A DNA stretch of 64,000 bases from Nitrospirota bacterium. GTDB taxonomy: Bacteria; Nitrospirota; UBA9217. The notes under the pieces were generated by a model. That model had not been told where the DNA came from. It worked only from the letters and a program-made list of their open reading frames with translations, and ran no database searches. The position numbers were made by a program, and so were the translations under genes. The DNA lies in NCBI GenBank assembly GCA_963751455.1, contig CAVVUN010000015.1, positions 1,568,001-1,632,000 on the forward strand. Reading direction: 5' to 3'. Positions 3,418-37,300 of this stretch are shown in pieces (the first letter of the stretch is position 1; the number at the start of each line of letters is the position of its first letter).

Positions 3418-3500
3418 GCCCACAAAAGAGACGTGTCTTTTGGGCGGTTGAATGCCGGTTTCAAACGGCGATCACCTGCCGAAAATGACACGTTTTTTTT
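3418..3500. terminator. Putative bidirectional intrinsic terminator between convergent genes
   Basis: AAAAGAGACGTGTCTTTTGGGC pairs with GCCGAAAATGACACGTTTTTTTT, ending in a T-tract. An alternative short hairpin CAAAAGA/TCTTTTG is also possible. Confidence 0.5.
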
Positions 3501-3506
3501 GGTCCG

Positions 3507-3953
3507 CTAATCGTTCGTATTCGATATGAATTCGATATCGGACACAATACGGGAGGCTTCATCGAGGGAAGGATGATCGTTTTCCGGGTTGCAAACGTAG
3601 GCGGCCATAAGCGCTCTTGTCCGGTCCACCAGGAACCATACCCTCCAGTGAGTAGGTTCTTCCTTTTCCCGGTATGTATAGTCGAGGGTCGCTATACCCA
3701 AGGGCCCCTGTTCCTCGACCTTGACCGCTTCACGGGGAAACGGAATATCGCGCTCTTCCAGCGTATCTTCAAGAAGTACTCTTGCCGCTTTTGCAGGCGG
3801 TGTTTTTGTCTCTTCGCGCTCTATGAATGAAAGCTGCAGCATTCCTGGCCAGCCGTTCTTCTCGAGCAGCACAAACCCCATTTCCTCCCGTTCGCTCCAT
3901 CCATCCGGCAGGAAAAGGTTGATCCATCTTTCATACGTGACTTTTTTACCCAT
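3507..3953 (-). CDS. Hypothetical protein (DUF3805/PsbP-like fold possible)
   Basis: 148-aa ORF from ATG 3953 with LFLPDGWSE near the N-terminus and HWRVWF later. Family assignment is by resemblance only. Confidence 0.55.
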   Translation of the reverse strand: MGKKVTYERWINLFLPDGWSEREEMGFVLLEKNGWPGMLQLSFIEREETKTPPAKAARVLLEDTLEERDIPFPREAVKVEEQGPLGIATLDYTYREKEEPTHWRVWFLVDRTRALMAAYVCNPENDHPSLDEASRIVSDIEFISNTND

Positions 3954-4028
3954 GGTAAGAGATTGTATCTGAGTCAAGTGAGGCAGTCAAATGAGTTTCG
4001 TAAATAGGGTCTAAAGAACTGTTTATAT

Positions 4029-4367
4029 CCCTTGATTCCCGTCTCCTGCTTCCCAAGGAGATGGTAGGTAAAGGGTCTATGGTTCACCCTTGATTCCCGT
4101 CTCCTGCTTCCCAAGGAGATGGTAGGTAAAGGGTCTATGGTTCACCCTTGATTCCCGTCTCCTGCTTCCCAAGGAGATGGTAGGTAAAGGGTCTATGGTT
4201 CACCCCTTGATTCCCGTCTCCTGTTTCCCAAGGAGATGGTAGGTAAAGGGTCTATGGTTCCCCTTGATTCCCGTCTCCTGGTTCTCAAGGAGATGGTAGG
4301 TAAAGGGTCTATGGTTCACCTTGATTCCCGTCTCCTGCTTCTCAAGGAGATGATACGTCAAGGGTCT
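4029..4367. repeat. Tandem array of 6 hairpin-forming ~58-bp units
   Basis: Unit CCCTTGATTCCCGTCTCCTGCTTCCCAAGGAGATGGTAGGTAAAGGGTCTATGGTTCA. TTGA anchors at 4032, 4090, 4148, 4207, 4264, 4321 (periods 58,58,59,57,57). No unique spacers. Confidence 0.95.
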
Positions 4368-4407
4368 CACCCGTTCCTCAGGAAGGGTGAACAATGGGTG
4401 AGCATCA

Positions 4408-4935
4408 TTAAATGAATTGTAACTGCTCCAGTTTGTCGATAATTCTGTCAACGCCTGTTTCCGGCCCGGCCTCTCCGCTGACTGTAAGCTCTGGTTTAAC
4501 AGGGGGTTCGTACGGTATCTGGATTCCGGGCACTGTTACGGCGCGGCCGGAGGTCGCACTGGCATATATCCCTTTCGGGTCTCGTCTCATGCAGATATCA
4601 AGCGGACAGTCGACGTAGACTTCAAGGAACCTGGAGATCAGACCGCGGGCATGGTCACGGTACGCCCGTTTTCCCGCTGTCGCATCGAAGATTACATTGA
4701 CGCCGCTCGCAATGATCCGTTCACCGATCAATACCAGCGCCCGGTAAAACTGGTCTCTCTCTTCCAGCCTGTATGTCGGTTCCGGTGTAAGGATCTTTCT
4801 CATCTCGTCCGATTCCAGCGTAACCACAGGTACACCGAGCTCGTTTAAGCGTTTTACCAGCTCACGTGCAATGGTGCTCTTGCCGGATGCCGGAAGTCCC
4901 GTTATCCACACTCCAAATCCCGCTTGTCCCCTCAT
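4408..4935 (-). CDS. cysC: Adenylylsulfate kinase (CysC)-like P-loop kinase
   Basis: WITGLPASGKSTIA Walker A, then LESDEMRKIL, EVYVDCPLDICMRRDPKGIY, PGIQIPYEPP. Confidence 0.75.
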   Translation of the reverse strand: MRGQAGFGVWITGLPASGKSTIARELVKRLNELGVPVVTLESDEMRKILTPEPTYRLEERDQFYRALVLIGERIIASGVNVIFDATAGKRAYRDHARGLISRFLEVYVDCPLDICMRRDPKGIYASATSGRAVTVPGIQIPYEPPVKPELTVSGEAGPETGVDRIIDKLEQLQFI

Positions 4936-6218: not shown

Positions 6219-7211
6219 TTAATCATCCGCGCCGACACGCCGTAATCCTGAAGATTTAATAGGAAGCGGTTCTCCCGGATCGAAAATCTCGTCACCGTAC
6301 TTGATTCTGTATGTCAGACCCGGGACCTGTTTACTGTAGGTAATCATGGAGCCGCCCTACGGTCTGTTTAATTCCTGTGTAGCGTCCCCGTTGAGAAGGG
6401 CGACCGGACCGGAAAGCCATGAGGAGTAAACAGATGGTAGTCATGAGATGCCAGCGAAATGAGCATATTGTTCTCGCTGTTGTTGCGCCCAACTACGATC
6501 TTTACTCTTTTATCGAAACGGTAATGGCGGCCGACCGTGAGCAGGCGGATATCATTGGGATTGACATTCTGTTTATCCTCGAAAAGATCGCGCAATTTAT
6601 CCGAGAAGTTTTTATCTAAAGAGGCAGCCGCCTGCCGGGGTGGAGAAATCTTTTATGCCGTACCGGGCTGAAGCTGAAGCTGGACCGTTCTCGACCGCCC
6701 GCTTATGGCGAGCAGATTTTCCCGCCGAATCAGGCCGTTCTGTTCAGCAGCAGTCTCGGGCAGCAGCGCGGCTGAAAGAGGGCGAAGAATAAGCCCTTTC
6801 ATGCCGGCATCGCGTTCAATCACGTTCAAGGCATCACGGCGCTGCGACAGGGACGCGTCCCAGCACTTCGCCGGTCACGACAAAGGATGCATTTGCTTCA
6901 TGCATGATTGTCTTCGCATGTTTCAGCATGAGGATCTTGCAATCGATACAGGGGTTTATGTTTTTTCCGTAGCCATGCACAGGGTTGCGGACAAGGTCGA
7001 CGTACGCCTGCCCCATATCGAAGATGCGGATGTCGATGCCGATCGATTTGTAAACGGTCGCTGCATGCGTCCGGCTTTCGTTACCGTAGCTCTTGGAAAA
7101 GGCGGACGTAAAGTAGAGTGCGGAAACTTCAAAGCCCTGTTCCATGACCAGCTTTGCCGCCAGCACACTGTCAAGACCGCCCGATATCAGGGCAATTGCC
7201 TTTCTGCTCAA
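6219..7211 (-). CDS. tRNA sulfurtransferase-like PP-loop protein (ThiI/MnmA-like, DUF814-type), frameshifted
   Basis: N-terminal ALISGGLDS, GYGKNINPCIDCK and TGEVLG; downstream fragments PAGGC, VGRHYR and VVGRN in other frames. C-terminal frame ends ...RRVGADD* at 6219. Several indels. Confidence 0.7.
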
Positions 7212-9171: not shown

Positions 9172-9804
9172 TCACTGAGCAAGCTTGTTTTCGAGCGCAT
9201 AGCGCGTCAGTTCCGAGTTGTTCTTCATTTCCATTTTTTCGAGAAGGCGCATGCGGTAGGTGCTTACGGTCTTTATGCTGAGCGACAGCTCCTCTCCGAT
9301 CTGTTTCACAGTTTTCCCCGAGGCAATCATGCAGAGCACCTGAAATTCCCGGTCTGAAAGCCGTTCATGAGGGTATGTTTCAAACTTAACTCCCACGCGA
9401 TCTGCGAGTTTTTCGGCAAGAAAAGCGCTCACATATTTTCCTCCGGAGTTAACTTTTCTTATCGCCGCAATTAATTCGTCAGGTGCACTGTCCTTGGTAA
9501 GATAGCCGGATGCTCCGGATTTAAGAGCGCGAACTGCGTACTGCTCCTCCGGAAACATACTCAGCATGAGGACGGCCAGCGAAGGTTTTTGTCGTTTCAA
9601 TTCCTTCAGGATCTCAAGTCCATCCTTGCCGGGCATGGAAATGTCCAGCAACAGCATATCGTAATTTTTTTTCGCAAGTTTCGCATAGATCTCGTCGCCG
9701 TTGCCCGCTTCATCGGCCACCACGATGTCCGGAGTTTCGGCAAGTATCTGTTTTATGCCTTTTCTTACGACCGCATGATCGTCCGCAATCAGTAATTTAA
9801 TCAT
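9172..9804 (-). CDS. NarL/UvrY-type response regulator (REC + LuxR HTH)
   Basis: MIKLLIADDHAVVRKG...LLDISMPG...LSDREFQVLCMIASGKTVKQIGEELSLSIKTVSTY. Has its own GGAGGA RBS 7 nt upstream of ATG 9804. Confidence 0.92.
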   Translation of the reverse strand: MIKLLIADDHAVVRKGIKQILAETPDIVVADEAGNGDEIYAKLAKKNYDMLLLDISMPGKDGLEILKELKRQKPSLAVLMLSMFPEEQYAVRALKSGASGYLTKDSAPDELIAAIRKVNSGGKYVSAFLAEKLADRVGVKFETYPHERLSDREFQVLCMIASGKTVKQIGEELSLSIKTVSTYRMRLLEKMEMKNNSELTRYALENKLAQ

Positions 9805-12800
9805 GAATAATTCCTCCGCCAGGGGAATTCGCACCGAAATCTCCGTTCCCGACATACGGGAACCGGTGATCGTCACGCTTCCGCCCCAGAAATACACCCG
9901 TTCCCTGATCCTGATCAGTCCAAGCGACTTCCGGTCACTAATCTGCTTTTCTGTAATGCCTTTGCCGTTGTCCTTCACGCAAAGGTGAAATTCGCCCTGT
10001 CCGCCTGTCAAGCCGATACTGACCTTTGTGGCCTTCGCATGCCGGGCGATATTCGTGAGCGTCTCCTGAAAGACCCGAAAAACCGCTGTCGAACGGTCGC
10101 GATCGAGAACAATCTCGTCCGGACTGAAAACAATGCTGCATTTGATGCCGGTTCTCTTTTCGAATTCTTCAGCCTGCCATTCCACTGCAGCGGCAAGGCC
10201 GAGGTGATCGAGTATGCCGGGCCTCAACTCGGTTGCGATTCTCTTTACGCTCTGCATAGTTGTTTCTATGAGCTCCGACATGGAAGCTTCTTTTTCTACC
10301 AGATCTTTGCGGTCAGAAGGGGTCTTTTTCTTCAACCACGCAAAATCCATCTTCAACGCAGTCATGGCCTGCCCAAGCTCGTCATGGATCTCCCCGCGCG
10401 ATGGAGGCCCGTTTTTTTTCGCGCGCCTCCTGAAGATAGCTGGAAAAACTTCGCAGCTGTTCGTTCAGCATCGTCAGCTCCGCTGTGCGTTCAGCCACCA
10501 GAATCTCAAGGTTCTCGTGCGATCTGCGCAATGCCTCCTCGGCTTCCTTCTGCTCGGTGACATCCTGAACCGTACCGGATTTGATGAGAGGTTTGCCCTC
10601 CGGGTCATAAAATACCTCGCCTATGGTGTGTACGGTCCGTACCGTTCCATCCGGACGGATGAGGCCGGTAATCCAATTCAAAAGGTTGTCGTTCGTAGAG
10701 CGCCGCATTTACTGCGTTTATAAAGGTTTCAGCGTCATCGGGATGCATGGCTTTCCCGACAGACTCGAACGTGGGAACATACTCCTCGGGGTTGACGCCG
10801 TATATACGGTACACTTCCTCGGACCAATAAAGCTCATTCGTAACAATGTCCCATTCCCAATTTCCGACGTGGGCCATTTTTTGCGCTTTGGACAGGCGCT
10901 CCCGACTGGTTGGAAGGGCCTGGTCAGCCTGTTTGCGCTCGGTGATGTCACGTACCACCGCAACCATGTAATCTTTGGTTCCTAAAGTCATGTACGTGAC
11001 GCTTACCTCCACCGGAAATAATGTACCGTCTCTGCGCCTGTTCATGCCTTCTATTGTCAGGTATCCCTTGTTCTTTGACTTTGGTGACATGATGAGTCCC
11101 AGAAGGTCTGATCGGGAAAACGCGCTTCAATATCCATGGTACCCAAACTCAGAAGGGTAGTTTTATCATAGCCGAGATTACTGCATGCCCGGTCATTTAC
11201 CATCAGGAAATGGCCCGTTGCAGGATCATTGACGAGTATTGCATCCTTCAGTGGTTGAGCAGGTTACGGAAAAGCAGTAAAGACTCCCTTGCCTCCTTCC
11301 TGGATGTCATGTCTCTCACCATTTCGATGACCGCACTGACTTTTCCAGACGAGTCCTTCAGCGGTGAAGCAGTGATGTCGAGGCGCAGGGTACCAACGAC
11401 AGATGGTGCGATTCTTTCTCCCCTGTGAACCGTCCCGTCCTGGAACGTCAATTCCACGGGGCAGCCTTCACATATTGCGTCCCTGTTTTCGAACGCTTTA
11501 TAACAGTTTTCGCCTGTATGGTCCCCGACAGTTTGATTCGCCAAATGGTTCTGATAGATGATCCTGAAATCGGGATCGAGGATGACCATCTGGTCACCAT
11601 TGTCGGCAATGATTGCTTCGGATTTGGATTTTTCCTCCTGTGCCGTCAGCAGGGCTGTCTTAAGCCTTTCTTCCGCCTGCTTTCGCCCGGTTATTTCCCT
11701 TATCAGCTCAATGCCGGCAACAATATTCCCCAAGGCATCCCTGAGGGGGATGCTGTTATTTCATAATGGGAGGTTCCCGTCTCAGTGGTCCTGTGCTGTT
11801 CCAGTGTATGGATTTTACCGTCCTTGAAGGACATGGTAAGATGACATCGTTCGCAAACCTGCTTTTTGTTCTGGAATGCCTTATAGCAATATTCTCCGAT
11901 ACGGTCGCCAAAAAAACCTATTGAGGCTTCGTTCTGATACAGGACTTTGTAATCCCGGTCCTGGATATTGATCCCATCGCCGATGGGCCGTGATGATCGA
12001 CTCGGTCCTGGCCTTCGCTTCTTTAGCTCTTGTAACCGCAGTCTTTAAGGATTCCTCGATTAGCTTTTTTCGCTCCGATATGTCCTTGAGAGGACCAGGA
12101 CAGCGCCCGTAATCCTGCCTTCCTCTGTGATTGGCGTGCTGATGTACTCGACAGGGAAGTTCGATCCGTCCTTTCTCCAGAAGACCTCATCAGGGGGGTG
12201 GTGAACGACGCCATCTTTCAGGGAAGCGGAAATGGGACAGTCCTCCGCGGGATAAGGCGATCCATTCAGACGGGAATGGTGCCCCCCAGTGTGCTGGTGT
12301 TTTCCGATGATCTCAGAGACGTTCCATCCCGTCAGCCGTGCCGCTGCGGGATTTGCGAAGGTTATTATGCCGTCAAGGTCGATTCCGCAGATTCCTTCGC
12401 CGGCAGTTTTCAGGATCATCTCGTTCCGGCGGTTGAGCAGCCGGATCATCTCGTCCGCACTCCGGCGTTCTGTTATGTCGCGGCTGACTCCCACCAGCCC
12501 GAGCACATTGCCCTGGATATCATGAATCGGTGCTTTGACGGTGTCGATAAATCTCTTTTTACCGTCGCTTCCGGTCATGATGTCCTCGACCTGGAGGGTC
12601 CGGCCGCTTTTCAGAAGCGCTTCATCGCTTCTTCTGCAGCTCTCCGCCAGTTCAGGAGATATCAGTTCTTCATCGCTTTTGCCGATAACCACTTCACTGC
12701 TTACGCCGGCGATTTCCTCAAACGCCTTGTTGACCAGCAGATAGCGGCCGCTGCAATCCTTAAAGAAAACCGCATCCGGCATGGCGTGAATCAAGGCCTC

Positions 12801-35068: not shown

Positions 35069-37300
35069 ATGAAGTGGACTATCGGGAAAAAATTGACTGC
35101 CGGCTTCATGAGTCTTGTCCTGTTGCTCATCATCGTCAGCGTCGTGGCATACGCCAACATGACAAGCATGGCCAGAAGTTCCGAATTTATATCATCGGCT
35201 GCGGAGATCAAGAACAGCTGTACTGCCCTCGCGAGGGATTTTATACGCCAGCAGGATGGTTATACCGACTATTCACTCACGAGAGAGTCCGAGGTAAAAA
35301 AAGAGATCGCTGAAGACGGCGAGCTGGTGAGAAAGGACATCGAAATACTGAAGGTGCTCCTTGCGGGCAAGGAAACCGGCGTCTCGAATGACGACATTCT
35401 GAAAATTCATGAACAATTCGAGACTACCGGCGAAATGATGGCATCCCTCTATATCCAGGGCAAGCAGGCGGAGGGGAATGCCGCAATGGAAAAGTTCGAC
35501 GGCGTCATTTCCAAGATCGAAAAACAGATGGCAAAACTGGAAGACTTTGCTAATAGAAACAGCGCCGATGCTGTAAAAGCGGCTGCTGATTCGAAAAGAA
35601 CGGCCAATATACTGATCATCGGCATTTCGTTGCTGTCAGTCATGATCGCGATTATTCTGGGGCTCTTCCTGTCGCGGTCGATAGCTATCCCCGTGATTGA
35701 AGTAGCGCGCATTGCCGGCAGGATCGCTGAGGGAGACATCGACCAGGATGTCAGGATAGAACGGGATGATGAAATAGGGACCCTGGCCGCATCGTTCAGG
35801 GAAATGATAACTTATCTGAAAGCAATGGCAAACGCGGCCGGCAACATCGCGGAAGGAGACCTGCGCTCCGATGTTAAGCCGAAGTCCGGCAAGGACGTAC
35901 TCGGTAATGCATTTGTTGCGATGTCATTATATCTGAAAGGGATGGCACAAGCGGCGGGTGACATAGCCGAGGGGGACCTGGGGTCCGATGTGACACCGAA
36001 GTCGGAGCGGGACGTTCTCGGGAACGCCTTTAAAAGGATGAACGGATACCTGAAGAGCATGGCAGCAGCGGCAAGCGACATCGCTGAGGGCGACCTCAGG
36101 TCCGAAGTGACGCCCAAATCCGACAGGGACGTTCTTGGAAACGCTTTCCATTCGATGATCCAGTCCTTGAGGAATATTATCGGGGATGTGCGCTCCGGCG
36201 CTAACGATATTGCTTCCGCCTCGGTGCAGGTCGCATCAACGTCGGAACAGGCCGCAAGGAACAATGAAACCGCCGCAACGGGAGTTGAAGAAACGACCTC
36301 GACCATGCACGAGATGTCGGCCAATATCCAGAACGTGGCAAAAAGCTCGCAGAGCCAGGCCTCGTCCGTCACCGAGACGTCCGCTTCCATTGAACAGATG
36401 ACGACATCCATTCAGCGGATTGCCGCGACGGTAAAGCAGTTCGTGGATCTTTCCCAGAAGACGAAAAAGGCCGTGGATCAGGGCTCGAATCCGTAGACCG
36501 CTCCATCAAAGGGACGGACGAGATCAACAAAGCGATCGTGAGCTCCGCGGACACCATAGCAACCCTGGGTTCGCGGGTGGAAGATATCGGCAAAATCGTG
36601 GACGTCATCGACGACATTGCGGAACAGACGAATCTGCTCGCCTTGAATGCGGCAATCGAGGCGGCGCGAGCCGGAGAACAGGGGATGGGTTTTGCAGTGG
36701 TCGCCGAGGAGGTTCGGAAGCTGGCCGAGCGTTCCGCAAAATCAACAAAAGAAATAGCCGATCTGATTTCCGGCATCCAGAAAGAATCGCAGGAGGCCGT
36801 CCGCCTGATGGAAAAATCGACCCAACTGGTGGAAAAGGGAGTGGACCTGAGCAGGGACGTGAAACGATCGCTCAAGGCCATTGAGAACAACGTGGGAGAA
36901 GTCGACAAATACTCGAAAGAGATCGGAGCGGCGACTCAGGAGCAGTCGAGCGGCAGCACGCAGATCGCGAAAGCCACGGAAAGCCTGCGAGAGATCACGC
37001 ATGAGATCACGTCCGCAACAGAAGAGCAGGCGTCGGCAGCGGAACAGATCGTGAAGACGATGGAAAAAATGAGAGAAATGATCCATCAGAATGCGTCGGG
37101 TACCACCGAGCTTGCTTCCTCCGCGGAACAGATGAGGGCACAGGCCGACCGGTTCAAGGAGATCATAGACCGGTTTGTACTGAGCAGACGAGGGCCGGAC
37201 GGCTCGCTCCGTGAAGAAAAAGAGAAGCAGTCGCGCCTGACGACGGCAATGGCAACGGGAAAAAAAAGCCGCCGAACGGCAGCTGGCAGGCGCGGTCTGA
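35069..37300 (+). CDS. Methyl-accepting chemotaxis protein 1 (helical periplasmic sensor, 4 HAMP), frameshifted
   Basis: ORFs 35069-36496 and 36538 onward; two TM, 39-aa HAMP repeats, [18 protein letters not shown]. Probable stop ...LAGAV* at 37300. Confidence 0.85.

What the first reader, a model, noticed from the sequence alone, without database searches (positions are those of the whole stretch)
4029..4367. Six-unit tandem array of ~58-nt hairpins with variation concentrated in the loop
Seen: each unit folds as ACCCTTGA/TAAAGGGT plus CCGTCTCCT/AGGAGATGG around an 8-nt loop, joined by the linker CTATGGTTC. In units 1-5 substitutions occur only in the loop (GCTTCCCA x3, GTTTCCCA, GGTTCTCA), with 1-bp indels at the unit junction. 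Unit 6 is more diverged and makes the outer stem perfect (CCTTGA/TCAAGG). Identical copies cluster at one end, and a partial TAGGGTCTA copy lies just upstream. The array sits between co-oriented genes (cysC-like and a hypothetical), so it may be transcribed. Inference: a structure-selected, polarly expanding array such as a REP/BIME-like element, a protein-binding RNA sponge or a processed small-RNA array. It has no spacers, so it is not a CRISPR.
Basis: partly seen in the sequence, partly recalled or inferred. Interest (0 to 1): 0.7.

Follow-up and report, generated by a model that had tools for sequence, protein, structure and literature searches.

The report
Stacked copies of tiny mobile hairpin
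The array is real: six head-to-tail copies of a 58-base DNA hairpin found about 120 times across this Nitrospirota genome, often nested inside other small repeats, and it is likely a gene-less mobile element moved by an unidentified enzyme rather than a functional RNA.

Summary
The array is real (58-nt period, 5.9 copies, 4029-4367, plus a decayed seventh piece to about 4400). Its unit ('A') is a dispersed family: 123 copies at 79 loci here, also in one other genus (2 of 64 genomes of the order) and in metagenomes. None of 14 relatives has the repeat at this locus, where cysC normally abuts the promoter of the next gene, so it is a late insertion. The 9-bp inner stem covaries strongly. Family-wide, variation is not confined to the loop; the least variable part is the unpaired TGATTC just 5' of the stem. 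A sits mostly 3' of TGAG with at most 1 nt duplicated, very often inside a second 44-nt hairpin element ('B') that itself inserts cleanly into other repeats. Arrays are whole units in one orientation, with the most diverged unit at the 3' end (7 of 7 simple arrays). No transposase or nuclease is linked, orientation is independent of transcription, and neighbours are unrelated. Verdict: an apparently undescribed family of REP/SDR-like small mobile hairpin; not a GTAG/CGTC REP, BIME, MITE, CRISPR or dRS3 repeat. The mobilising enzyme was not found. An RNA function is unlikely.

The parts
4029..4086 (+). Unit 1 of element A (58 nt): CCCTTGATTC, 9-bp stem with one G-T pair, 8-nt loop GCTTCCCA, 3' tail ending GGGTCTATGGTTCA
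4087..4144 (+). Unit 2, identical to unit 1
4145..4203 (+). Unit 3, identical core, one extra C at the junction
4204..4260 (+). Unit 4, loop GTTTCCCA, 57 nt
4261..4317 (+). Unit 5, loop GGTTCTCA, 57 nt; resembles the first unit at the same site on the second-organism contig C10
4318..4367 (+). Unit 6, most diverged full unit (7 differences in the first 52 positions)
4367..4402 (+). Decayed seventh piece (loop and 3' half of a unit), still able to fold a hairpin
   Evidence: nhmmer E=0.038; DNA fold -8.1 kcal/mol
4023..4028 (-). ATATAA, the position of the cysC Ile-stop in relatives; now the promoter-side flank of the insertion
4408..4413 (-). ATTTAA, present Ile-stop of cysC; possible degenerate copy of 4023-4028 (inferred 6-8 nt duplication at this one site)
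   Evidence: inference
3962..4022 (-).
4408..4935 (-). cysC-like adenylylsulphate kinase gene, frame intact to the residue where relatives end
   Evidence: PF01583 E=5.5e-36
3507..3953 (-). Conserved hypothetical gene, 148 aa; found in 22 of 24 same-family genomes; lead only: DUF1795/DcrB-like

Best explanation
The array is a stack of six whole copies of a 58-base gene-less hairpin repeat that is scattered through this genome and was inserted at the cysC stop codon; the repeat is likely moved as folded single-stranded DNA by an enzyme encoded elsewhere, and the stack likely grew by adding copies at its 5' end. Shown: dispersed family, empty sites in relatives, covarying stem, near-invariant unpaired ATTC at the 5' foot of the stem, preferred left flank TGAG, at most 1 nt duplicated when inside element B, array period within 1-2 nt of the inserted length, one orientation in all arrays, decay towards the 3' end. 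Inferred: a strand-specific nick-and-transfer enzyme (HUH type is my leading guess, about 0.4) reads the hairpin and foot motif; the first head-to-tail pair arises from re-insertion at the element's own end or from a rolling-circle-like copy, and later copies may also come from ordinary slippage. The array probably has no selected function at this locus.
For: 123 copies at 79 loci, 0 hits at E<=0.01 in the reversed genome. No repeat at this site in 14 of 14 relatives; 13 of them have cysC directly against the conserved promoter. A second empty-site case: the rplN-rplX gap holds a 3-unit array here and is 26-56 nt in 10 of 10 relatives parsed. Contig C10 (second organism, 83-91% identical) has a different two-unit nested cluster at the same site. 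Stem: 376 of 432 cells paired against 311+-6 in arm shuffles, 64 double changes against 22+-4, 0 of 2000 shuffles (48 distinct arm pairs); the three highest mutual-information pairs are stem partners. ATTC precedes the stem in 90 of 95 full copies. TGAG precedes the first unit at 31 of 71 loci. Cutting A out after TGAG and 5 nt after GTCTA restores element B's GAGTG in 16 of 23 genome cases and 14 of 22 others; insert length is mostly 57-60 nt. All 25 multi-copy loci are single-orientation. The last adjacent pair is the least similar in 11 of 13 arrays and in 7 of 7 without nested inserts. Patchy range: 2 of 64 genomes of the order. Precedent for hairpin plus 5' tetranucleotide plus stem mismatch, and for a rolling-circle-like tandem model: passages of PMC3333891 and PMC8266576.
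Against: No mobiliser found: none of 33 Y1, 1 DUF559 or 6 GIY-YIG matches lies within 1 kb of a copy (nearest 1109 bp); no TnpB match; 0 of 123 neighbouring ORFs from G011 and metagenome loci hit a nuclease or transposase family. Several genomes with element B have no Y1 match (G001, G013, G057, G069, G071, G076; 68-98% complete). The folded strand lies mostly on the C-rich strand (A on the G-rich strand at 19 of 58 loci, p=0.012), opposite to the lagging-template preference of IS200/IS605 if G-rich is the leading strand; the bias is not significant for A outside B (13 of 36, p=0.13) or with 25-kb windows (32 of 78, p=0.14). The TGAG count is inflated by A-in-B composites that may share founders. 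The 3' end is uncertain by 1-2 nt, and this locus hints at a 6-8 nt duplication unlike the B sites. Covariation shuffles do not correct for relatedness. Slippage alone would also leave the last unit's tail unhomogenised, which weakens the polarity argument. No excised circle or new insertion was observed.
Confidence: 0.62

Rival explanations
1. Same dispersed element, but it moves through an RNA copy (reverse transcription in trans), the hairpin being the RNA handle; a sharp 5' end and a ragged 3' end would come from priming.
For: Fold is better on one strand and keeps G-T at stem position 3 in 22 of 48 arm pairs; 3' end varies by 1-2 nt; no Y1 link.
Against: No orientation bias to transcription (11 versus 12); no internal promoter seen in the array; G-T pairs and G-A loop closure also suit single-stranded DNA (general knowledge). 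Reverse transcriptases were not searched.
Confidence: 0.12
2. The unit moves as a small circle through a site-specific recombinase (IS110 type or tyrosine recombinase) that pairs a short core with hairpin targets.
For: Little or no target duplication; preference for hairpin hosts; three IS110 matches in the genome; several lone copies are followed by ACC(CT), like the unit's own start.
Against: No attC-type boxes in 0 of 95 copies; no shared core seen between TGAG targets and the tandem junction; the IS110 genes were not examined for matching ends.
Confidence: 0.1
3. The family is an immobile relic; this array grew only by replication slippage or unequal exchange from an old two-unit insertion.
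For: C10 holds a unit-5-like then a unit-6-like copy at the same site, so units 1-4 could be local duplicates; each array is made of its own subtype.
Against: Explains later growth but not the first tandem pair, the shared linker at unrelated loci in two genera, or the nesting. It is compatible with the best explanation as a secondary process.
Confidence: 0.12
4. The array is selected as RNA: a protein sponge or a precursor of processed 58-nt small RNAs.
For: Regular hairpins with a conserved loop-closing G and A; lies between co-oriented genes.
Against: Absent at this site in 14 of 14 relatives; read-through from cysC would give the weaker-folding strand; neighbours are unrelated genes; no Rfam match near threshold; copies are freely interrupted by other repeats.
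Confidence: 0.06
5. The tandem array is an assembly artefact.
For: No record spans the whole array; junction indels sit in C runs.
Against: Units differ from each other; X1 contigs cross unit junctions; similar arrays occur at other loci, in G011 and in metagenome contigs. The exact count of six remains unverified.
Confidence: 0.02

Closest known systems
REP sequences, BIMEs and REPINs with TnpA-REP/RAYT (passages of PMC3333891, PMC8266576, PMC6006769, PMC3733652, PMC3116915)
   Same: Intergenic, high-copy, lineage-restricted hairpin within the 21-65 nt range given in PMC6006769; conserved tetranucleotide 5' of the stem; stem mismatch; tandem copies alike within a locus; REPs inserted in other palindromes and REPINs in REPINs are reported.
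   Different: Foot motif is ATTC, not GTAG/GTGG or CGTC; never an inverted pair (0 of 25 multi-copy loci); fixed 3' tail of about 22 nt; arrays are bare units without captured flank; no flanked tnpA-REP gene found.
Small dispersed repeats (SDRs) of Nostocaceae, Elhai et al. 2008 (paper not readable here; citation seen in PMC3116915; features recalled)
   Same: Very small gene-less repeats with conserved folding that insert into other repeats and into each other, with no known mobiliser (recalled).
   Different: Different phylum; A is longer and forms head-to-tail arrays; sequence relationship not tested.
IS200/IS605 ends and their gene-less derivatives (passages of PMC3333891, PMC6006769, PMC8266576)
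   Same: Hairpin with a motif 5' of its foot; sits 3' of a preferred tetranucleotide; strand-specific fold.
   Different: One hairpin, not two ends; no similarity seen by eye to the ends of the IS200-type genes of this genome; replication-strand bias is in the opposite direction or absent; no TnpB match.
dRS3/NTS and Ssn-related motifs (passages of PMC11893778)
   Same: Shares ATTCCC at the 5' side; single-stranded hairpin.
   Different: 0 of 95 copies have the ATTCCC-N8-GGGAAT palindrome; in A the ATTC is unpaired; no ssnA-like gene adjacent.
CRISPR arrays
   Same: Regular hairpin repeats, most diverged copy at one end.
   Different: No spacers; dispersed single copies dominate (54 of 79 loci); no cas family among the 10 window ORFs scanned.

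Membership tests
GTAG/CGTC REP | Extragenic, multi-copy imperfect palindrome | tested here: met
   123 copies; 3 of the genome's 79 loci fall inside a called gene, one of them a short doubtful call; covarying stem
GTAG/CGTC REP | GTAG, GTGG or CGTC tag at the hairpin foot | tested here: not met
   ATTC in 90 of 95 on the folded strand; on the other strand the foot varies (CGTA, CCTA, TCGA)
GTAG/CGTC REP | tnpA-REP/RAYT gene flanked by the repeat | tested here: not met
   0 of 33 Y1 matches within 1 kb; 0 of 123 neighbour ORFs elsewhere; flanks of G011's 7 Y1 loci not scanned for A
GTAG/CGTC REP | Strand-specific cleavage by the cognate Y1 enzyme | not testable with these tools
   needs biochemistry
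BIME / REPIN | Two copies in inverted orientation | tested here: not met
   25 of 25 multi-copy loci are head-to-tail
MITE | Terminal inverted repeats at both ends | tested here: not met
   the weak outer pairing stops 7-8 nt before the 3' end and is not among the top 18 covarying pairs
MITE | Fixed target-site duplication | tested here: not met
   0-1 nt inside B; a possible 6-8 nt duplication at this one locus is unexplained
IS200/IS605 derivative | Insertion 3' of a conserved tetranucleotide without duplication | tested here: inconclusive
   TGAG at 31 of 71 loci, many being A-in-B composites; other flanks vary
IS200/IS605 derivative | Left and right end hairpins matching an autonomous IS | tested here: not met
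   single hairpin; no split copy enclosing a gene; Y1 flanks differ
IS200/IS605 derivative | Active strand on the lagging-strand template | tested here: not met
   folded strand on the G-rich strand at only 19 of 58 loci, assuming G-rich is leading (1187 of 1575 long ORFs)
dRS3/NTS/SRM | ATTCCC-N8-GGGAAT palindrome | tested here: not met
   0 of 95; the broader SRM pattern was not tested
CRISPR | Unique spacers between repeats | tested here: not met
   units abut directly
Integron attC array | RYYYAAC...GTTRRRY boxes at the ends (motif recalled) | tested here: not met
   0 of 95
SDR-like small mobile repeats (loose class, features recalled) | Small, gene-less, conserved fold, nested in other repeats, empty sites in relatives | tested here: met
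SDR-like small mobile repeats (loose class, features recalled) | Sequence kinship with the Nostoc SDR families | not tested
   paper not held
Known structured RNA (Rfam 15) | Match at gathering score | tested here: not met
   best 19-21 bits against thresholds of 53-235

The most novel reading that the evidence does not exclude
Element A is a 58-nt parasite of a 44-nt parasite. It targets TGAG inside hairpin element B, which itself lands precisely in other repeats. It builds spacer-less arrays by unit-exact duplication of the 5'-most copy, and both elements are moved by an enzyme class that is not a Y1/RAYT transposase. That would be a new single-strand transposition system with built-in polar array growth, mechanically reminiscent of CRISPR repeat duplication.
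Probability: 0.2. Interest if true: 0.78.

Novelty: new member of a known kind. Interest (0 to 1): 0.4.

Why it matters
How tiny gene-less palindromic repeats spread and form tandem clusters is still open even for E. coli BIMEs, where tandem growth rests on models. This family has unusually readable anatomy: defined ends, a preferred target, a nesting hierarchy with a second element present in 31 of 64 genomes of the order, polar arrays and a patchy range (2 of 64 genomes). That makes a comparative search for the mobilising gene feasible. For the locus itself the result is ordinary: a passenger insertion that left cysC and the downstream promoter intact. It also warns that loop-only variation in one array is not evidence of a loop-read RNA.

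Tried and rejected
Rfam on the locus and on 8 related loci: nothing near threshold. Linked mobiliser: Y1, DUF559 (17), GIY-YIG, IS91-type Y2 (the control rang nowhere, so uninformative), TnpB (54, none), IS110 (55, three, ends not examined), split copies around a gene (41), neighbour clustering of 680 ORFs and Pfam on 123 ORFs kept of 143: no link. G000's own neighbours were clustered but not Pfam-scanned, apart from 10 window ORFs. Gene presence across 64 genomes: Y1 in 54 and PF13366 in 50, neither tracks A or B. Viral contigs, phages and plasmids: no A; B occurs in 4 viral stretches, and the two read (L152, L153) are phage structural regions. A sense-strand bias for lone A copies (13 versus 3) vanished with better gene calls and grouping (11 versus 12) and was dropped. 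The exeA-like site could not give a junction because relatives carry other repeats there. No RNA holder was listed, which says nothing on expression. The second read lay covered only rplN and rplX of other organisms. Likeness of A to the repeat beside the DUF559 gene was noticed by eye; L039 showed no such gene among ORFs of 70 aa or more, not pursued. Guide-to-cleavage pairing rules gave no consistent match to A's junctions; rejected as numerology. An HDV-like ribozyme or kink-turn reading of B was dropped because covariation gives one long hairpin. The regex-based pair counts were not used, as the metagenome rows had been selected by a stem pattern. The A-in-B count returned 0 through a pattern error and was redone. 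Literature: searches found no description of this repeat; the library lacks most subscription papers, and no supplements were read (the REP tables in the supplements of PMC3733652 and PMC6006769 could bear on novelty).

Full report
Observation. The array is in the sequence as described: period 58, 5.9 copies, 4029-4367, with starts 58, 58, 59, 57 and 57 apart. Units 1-3 share one core, unit 4 differs at one loop base, unit 5 at two, unit 6 at seven positions. Single units fold well on the + strand (z -2.7 to -3.9) and less well on the - strand (z -1.4 to -2.0); the whole region on the - strand is unremarkable (z -0.96). A decayed seventh piece runs to about 4400. Short-read contigs of run X1, which differ from the window at several sites, include an 87-nt piece across two junctions, so the tandem arrangement is real, though six copies is not independently confirmed.

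It belongs to a dispersed family. Iterated nhmmer finds 123 copies at 79 loci (E<=0.1; 115 at E<=0.01) and none at E<=0.01 in the reversed genome; 54 loci are single and 25 multiple, all head-to-tail. I call the unit A. A degenerate pattern matches 2 of 64 genomes of the order, G000 and G011. A stricter pattern gave 10 stretches in the species-level genome collection, all from one Nitrospirota assembly whose coordinates match G011. The degenerate pattern gave 108 metagenome stretches, 86 with a profile hit, a few of them weak or unrelated. There was no match in viral contigs, phages or plasmids.

It is a late insertion here. The downstream gene is found in 22 of 24 same-family genomes. At the 14 relative loci fetched there is no repeat, and in 13 the cysC stop runs straight into a conserved stretch ending in TTGACT-17-TACAAT (the promoter scan alone is not above chance, conservation carries it). 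The array sits at that ancestral stop and leaves both cysC and the promoter intact. Contig C10, which aligns to this region over 30 kb at 83-91% identity and is probably a second organism in the bin, has a different two-unit nested cluster at the same site, so the insertion predates that split and the clusters then diverged. A three-unit array lies between rplN and rplX, where 10 relatives have 26-56 nt.

What is conserved. In 95 full-length copies (48 distinct arm pairs, found by sequence only) 376 of 432 stem cells pair, against 311+-6 when arms are shuffled, with 64 double changes against 22+-4. Relatedness is not corrected, and a few misaligned rows were left in. Position 3 is G-T in 22, C-G in 13 and A-T in 6 pairs. 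The three top mutual-information pairs are stem partners, and no outer-stem pair is in the top 18. The unpaired TGATTC before the stem is 97-100% conserved, the loop's first G 100% and last A 97%, while stem position 8 is only 45%. So the selected features are a one-strand hairpin with a fixed 5' foot, not a free loop on a fixed stem.

Nesting and ends. Many copies lie inside a second element, B (44 nt, 205 hits, none in the reversed genome; pattern in 31 of 64 genomes); 42 of 79 A loci adjoin B, on the same strand in 33 of 34 cases scored. Cutting A out after TGAG and 5 nt past GTCTA restores B in 16 of 23 genome cases and 14 of 22 others; some cut within 2 nt works in 17 of 23 and 22 of 22, with inserts mostly 57-60 nt. 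B is itself a clean insert: removing it rejoins flanks found elsewhere in the genome for 51-56 of 80 copies at the best no-duplication cuts, against 9-32 off that diagonal and controls of 13 of 80 and 41 of 200. A also sits in A, and B in A and in B. TGAG precedes the first unit at 31 of 71 loci. Filled B copies read TTATGA in 43 of 48, empty ones in 12 of 97; founder effects may contribute. At this locus Ile-stop-like hexamers stand on both sides of the insertion, which may be a 6-8 nt duplication and is not explained by the B pattern.

Arrays. The period equals the inserted length within 1-2 nt, and the linker is shared between unrelated loci and two genera, so arrays are stacks of whole units. 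Similarity between neighbours is lowest at the 3' end in 11 of 13 arrays of three or more hits (one tie, one reverse) and in 7 of 7 without nested inserts.

Function and mobiliser. Lone copies are 11 sense and 12 antisense between co-oriented genes; an earlier 13 to 3 bias did not survive. Neighbours are unrelated housekeeping and signalling genes. Rfam has no match. No Y1, DUF559 or GIY-YIG match lies within 1 kb of a copy, there is no TnpB, and no copy is split around a gene. Y1 and PF13366 presence do not track either element. The folded strand leans to the C-rich strand (19 of 58 on the G-rich strand), which does not fit the IS200/IS605 rule quoted in PMC3333891 and is not significant for A alone.

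Mechanism. Shown: dispersed insertion, defined ends, covarying stem, fixed foot, nesting, polar whole-unit arrays. Inferred: movement in trans as folded single-stranded DNA, by analogy with REP and IS200/IS605 hairpins whose 5' tetranucleotide and stem mismatch are needed for binding and cleavage (passages), and array growth by re-insertion or the rolling-circle-like addition modelled for BIMEs, helped by slippage. I put 0.62 on this overall and about 0.4 on an HUH-type enzyme. Rivals are an RNA intermediate (0.12), slippage of an inert relic (0.12), a recombinase acting on a circle (0.10), a functional RNA (0.06) and artefact (0.02).

Comparison. It works like a REP or SDR but fails the defining tests for GTAG/CGTC REPs, BIMEs, MITEs, dRS3, attC and CRISPR. 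REPs inserted in other palindromes and head-to-tail REP dimers are reported (passages of PMC3733652), as are REPINs in REPINs and tandem REP arrays (passages of PMC3116915). The dRS3 definition is from passages of PMC11893778 and the REP size range from passages of PMC6006769. The Nostoc SDR paper could not be read and is recalled. Nine paper searches found no description of this repeat, within a library that lacks most subscription papers; no supplements were read. Earlier scan notes describe similar nested micro-elements in other genomes, none matching this sequence; they are leads, not support.

Verdict. A real, apparently undescribed family of a known kind of small mobile hairpin repeat, with a clean anatomy and an unknown mover. 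Interest 0.4.

Noticed in passing
G000 genome-wide, e.g. G000:C15:960253 and L153:4175-4219: Element B, a 44-nt hairpin with a 5' CCTG overhang, covarying pairs 6-43, 8-41 and 19-34 and a predicted tandem G-A pair; 205 hits here, pattern in 31 of 64 genomes of the order with 1-80 matches and in phage contigs; inserts after G without duplication into other repeats. It deserves its own study.
   Followed up: partly
G000 contigs C10 and C7: C10 duplicates 30 kb of the window region at 83-91% identity and C7 aligns to C1 over 20 kb; the bin probably holds DNA of a second organism.
   Followed up: partly
window 3962-4027, - strand: Beyond the -35 and -10 boxes, about 35 further upstream bases (TATAAAC..CCTATTT.CGAAACTCAT) are conserved in 12 of 12 aligned relatives; possibly a regulator site. 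The transcript would be nearly leaderless.
   Followed up: partly
window 3423-3501: Long imperfect inverted repeat between the converging ends of the sigma-70 gene and the hypothetical gene, likely a two-way terminator or another palindromic insert.
   Followed up: no
G000:C15:1002561-1002722 (L174): A three-unit array of A sits inside the ribosomal protein operon between rplN and rplX, antisense to the mRNA.
   Followed up: partly
G000 Y1 matches, e.g. C1:546104, C15:1291667, C15:1323935: About 20 of the 33 Y1 matches belong to a roughly 300-aa family bounded by inverted repeats starting TTTAGGGTCA, like the TIRYT group of PMC6006769; some are nested or tandem. Not linked to A or B.
   Followed up: partly
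window 6834-7211 and 9172-10365: A thiI-like gene ends early, and a histidine-kinase part is fused in frame to a response regulator; these may be frameshifts from assembly errors or real decay.
   Followed up: no
L155-L170, upstream of the exeA-like gene: Nearly every relative carries a different palindromic or 7-base repeat in the same short intergenic gap, suggesting a hotspot and many unrelated repeat families in this family of bacteria.
   Followed up: no
G000:C3:110884, C3:113117, C8:270459, C14:28103, C4:78981, C8:256541, C9:349986: The 5' end of lone A clusters often lies within 1-6 nt of a start or stop codon, while the 3' side carries decayed copies and other repeats.
   Followed up: partly
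window 35929-36144: A 117-nt repeat of 1.8 copies at 76% identity, probably a repeated protein domain.
   Followed up: no
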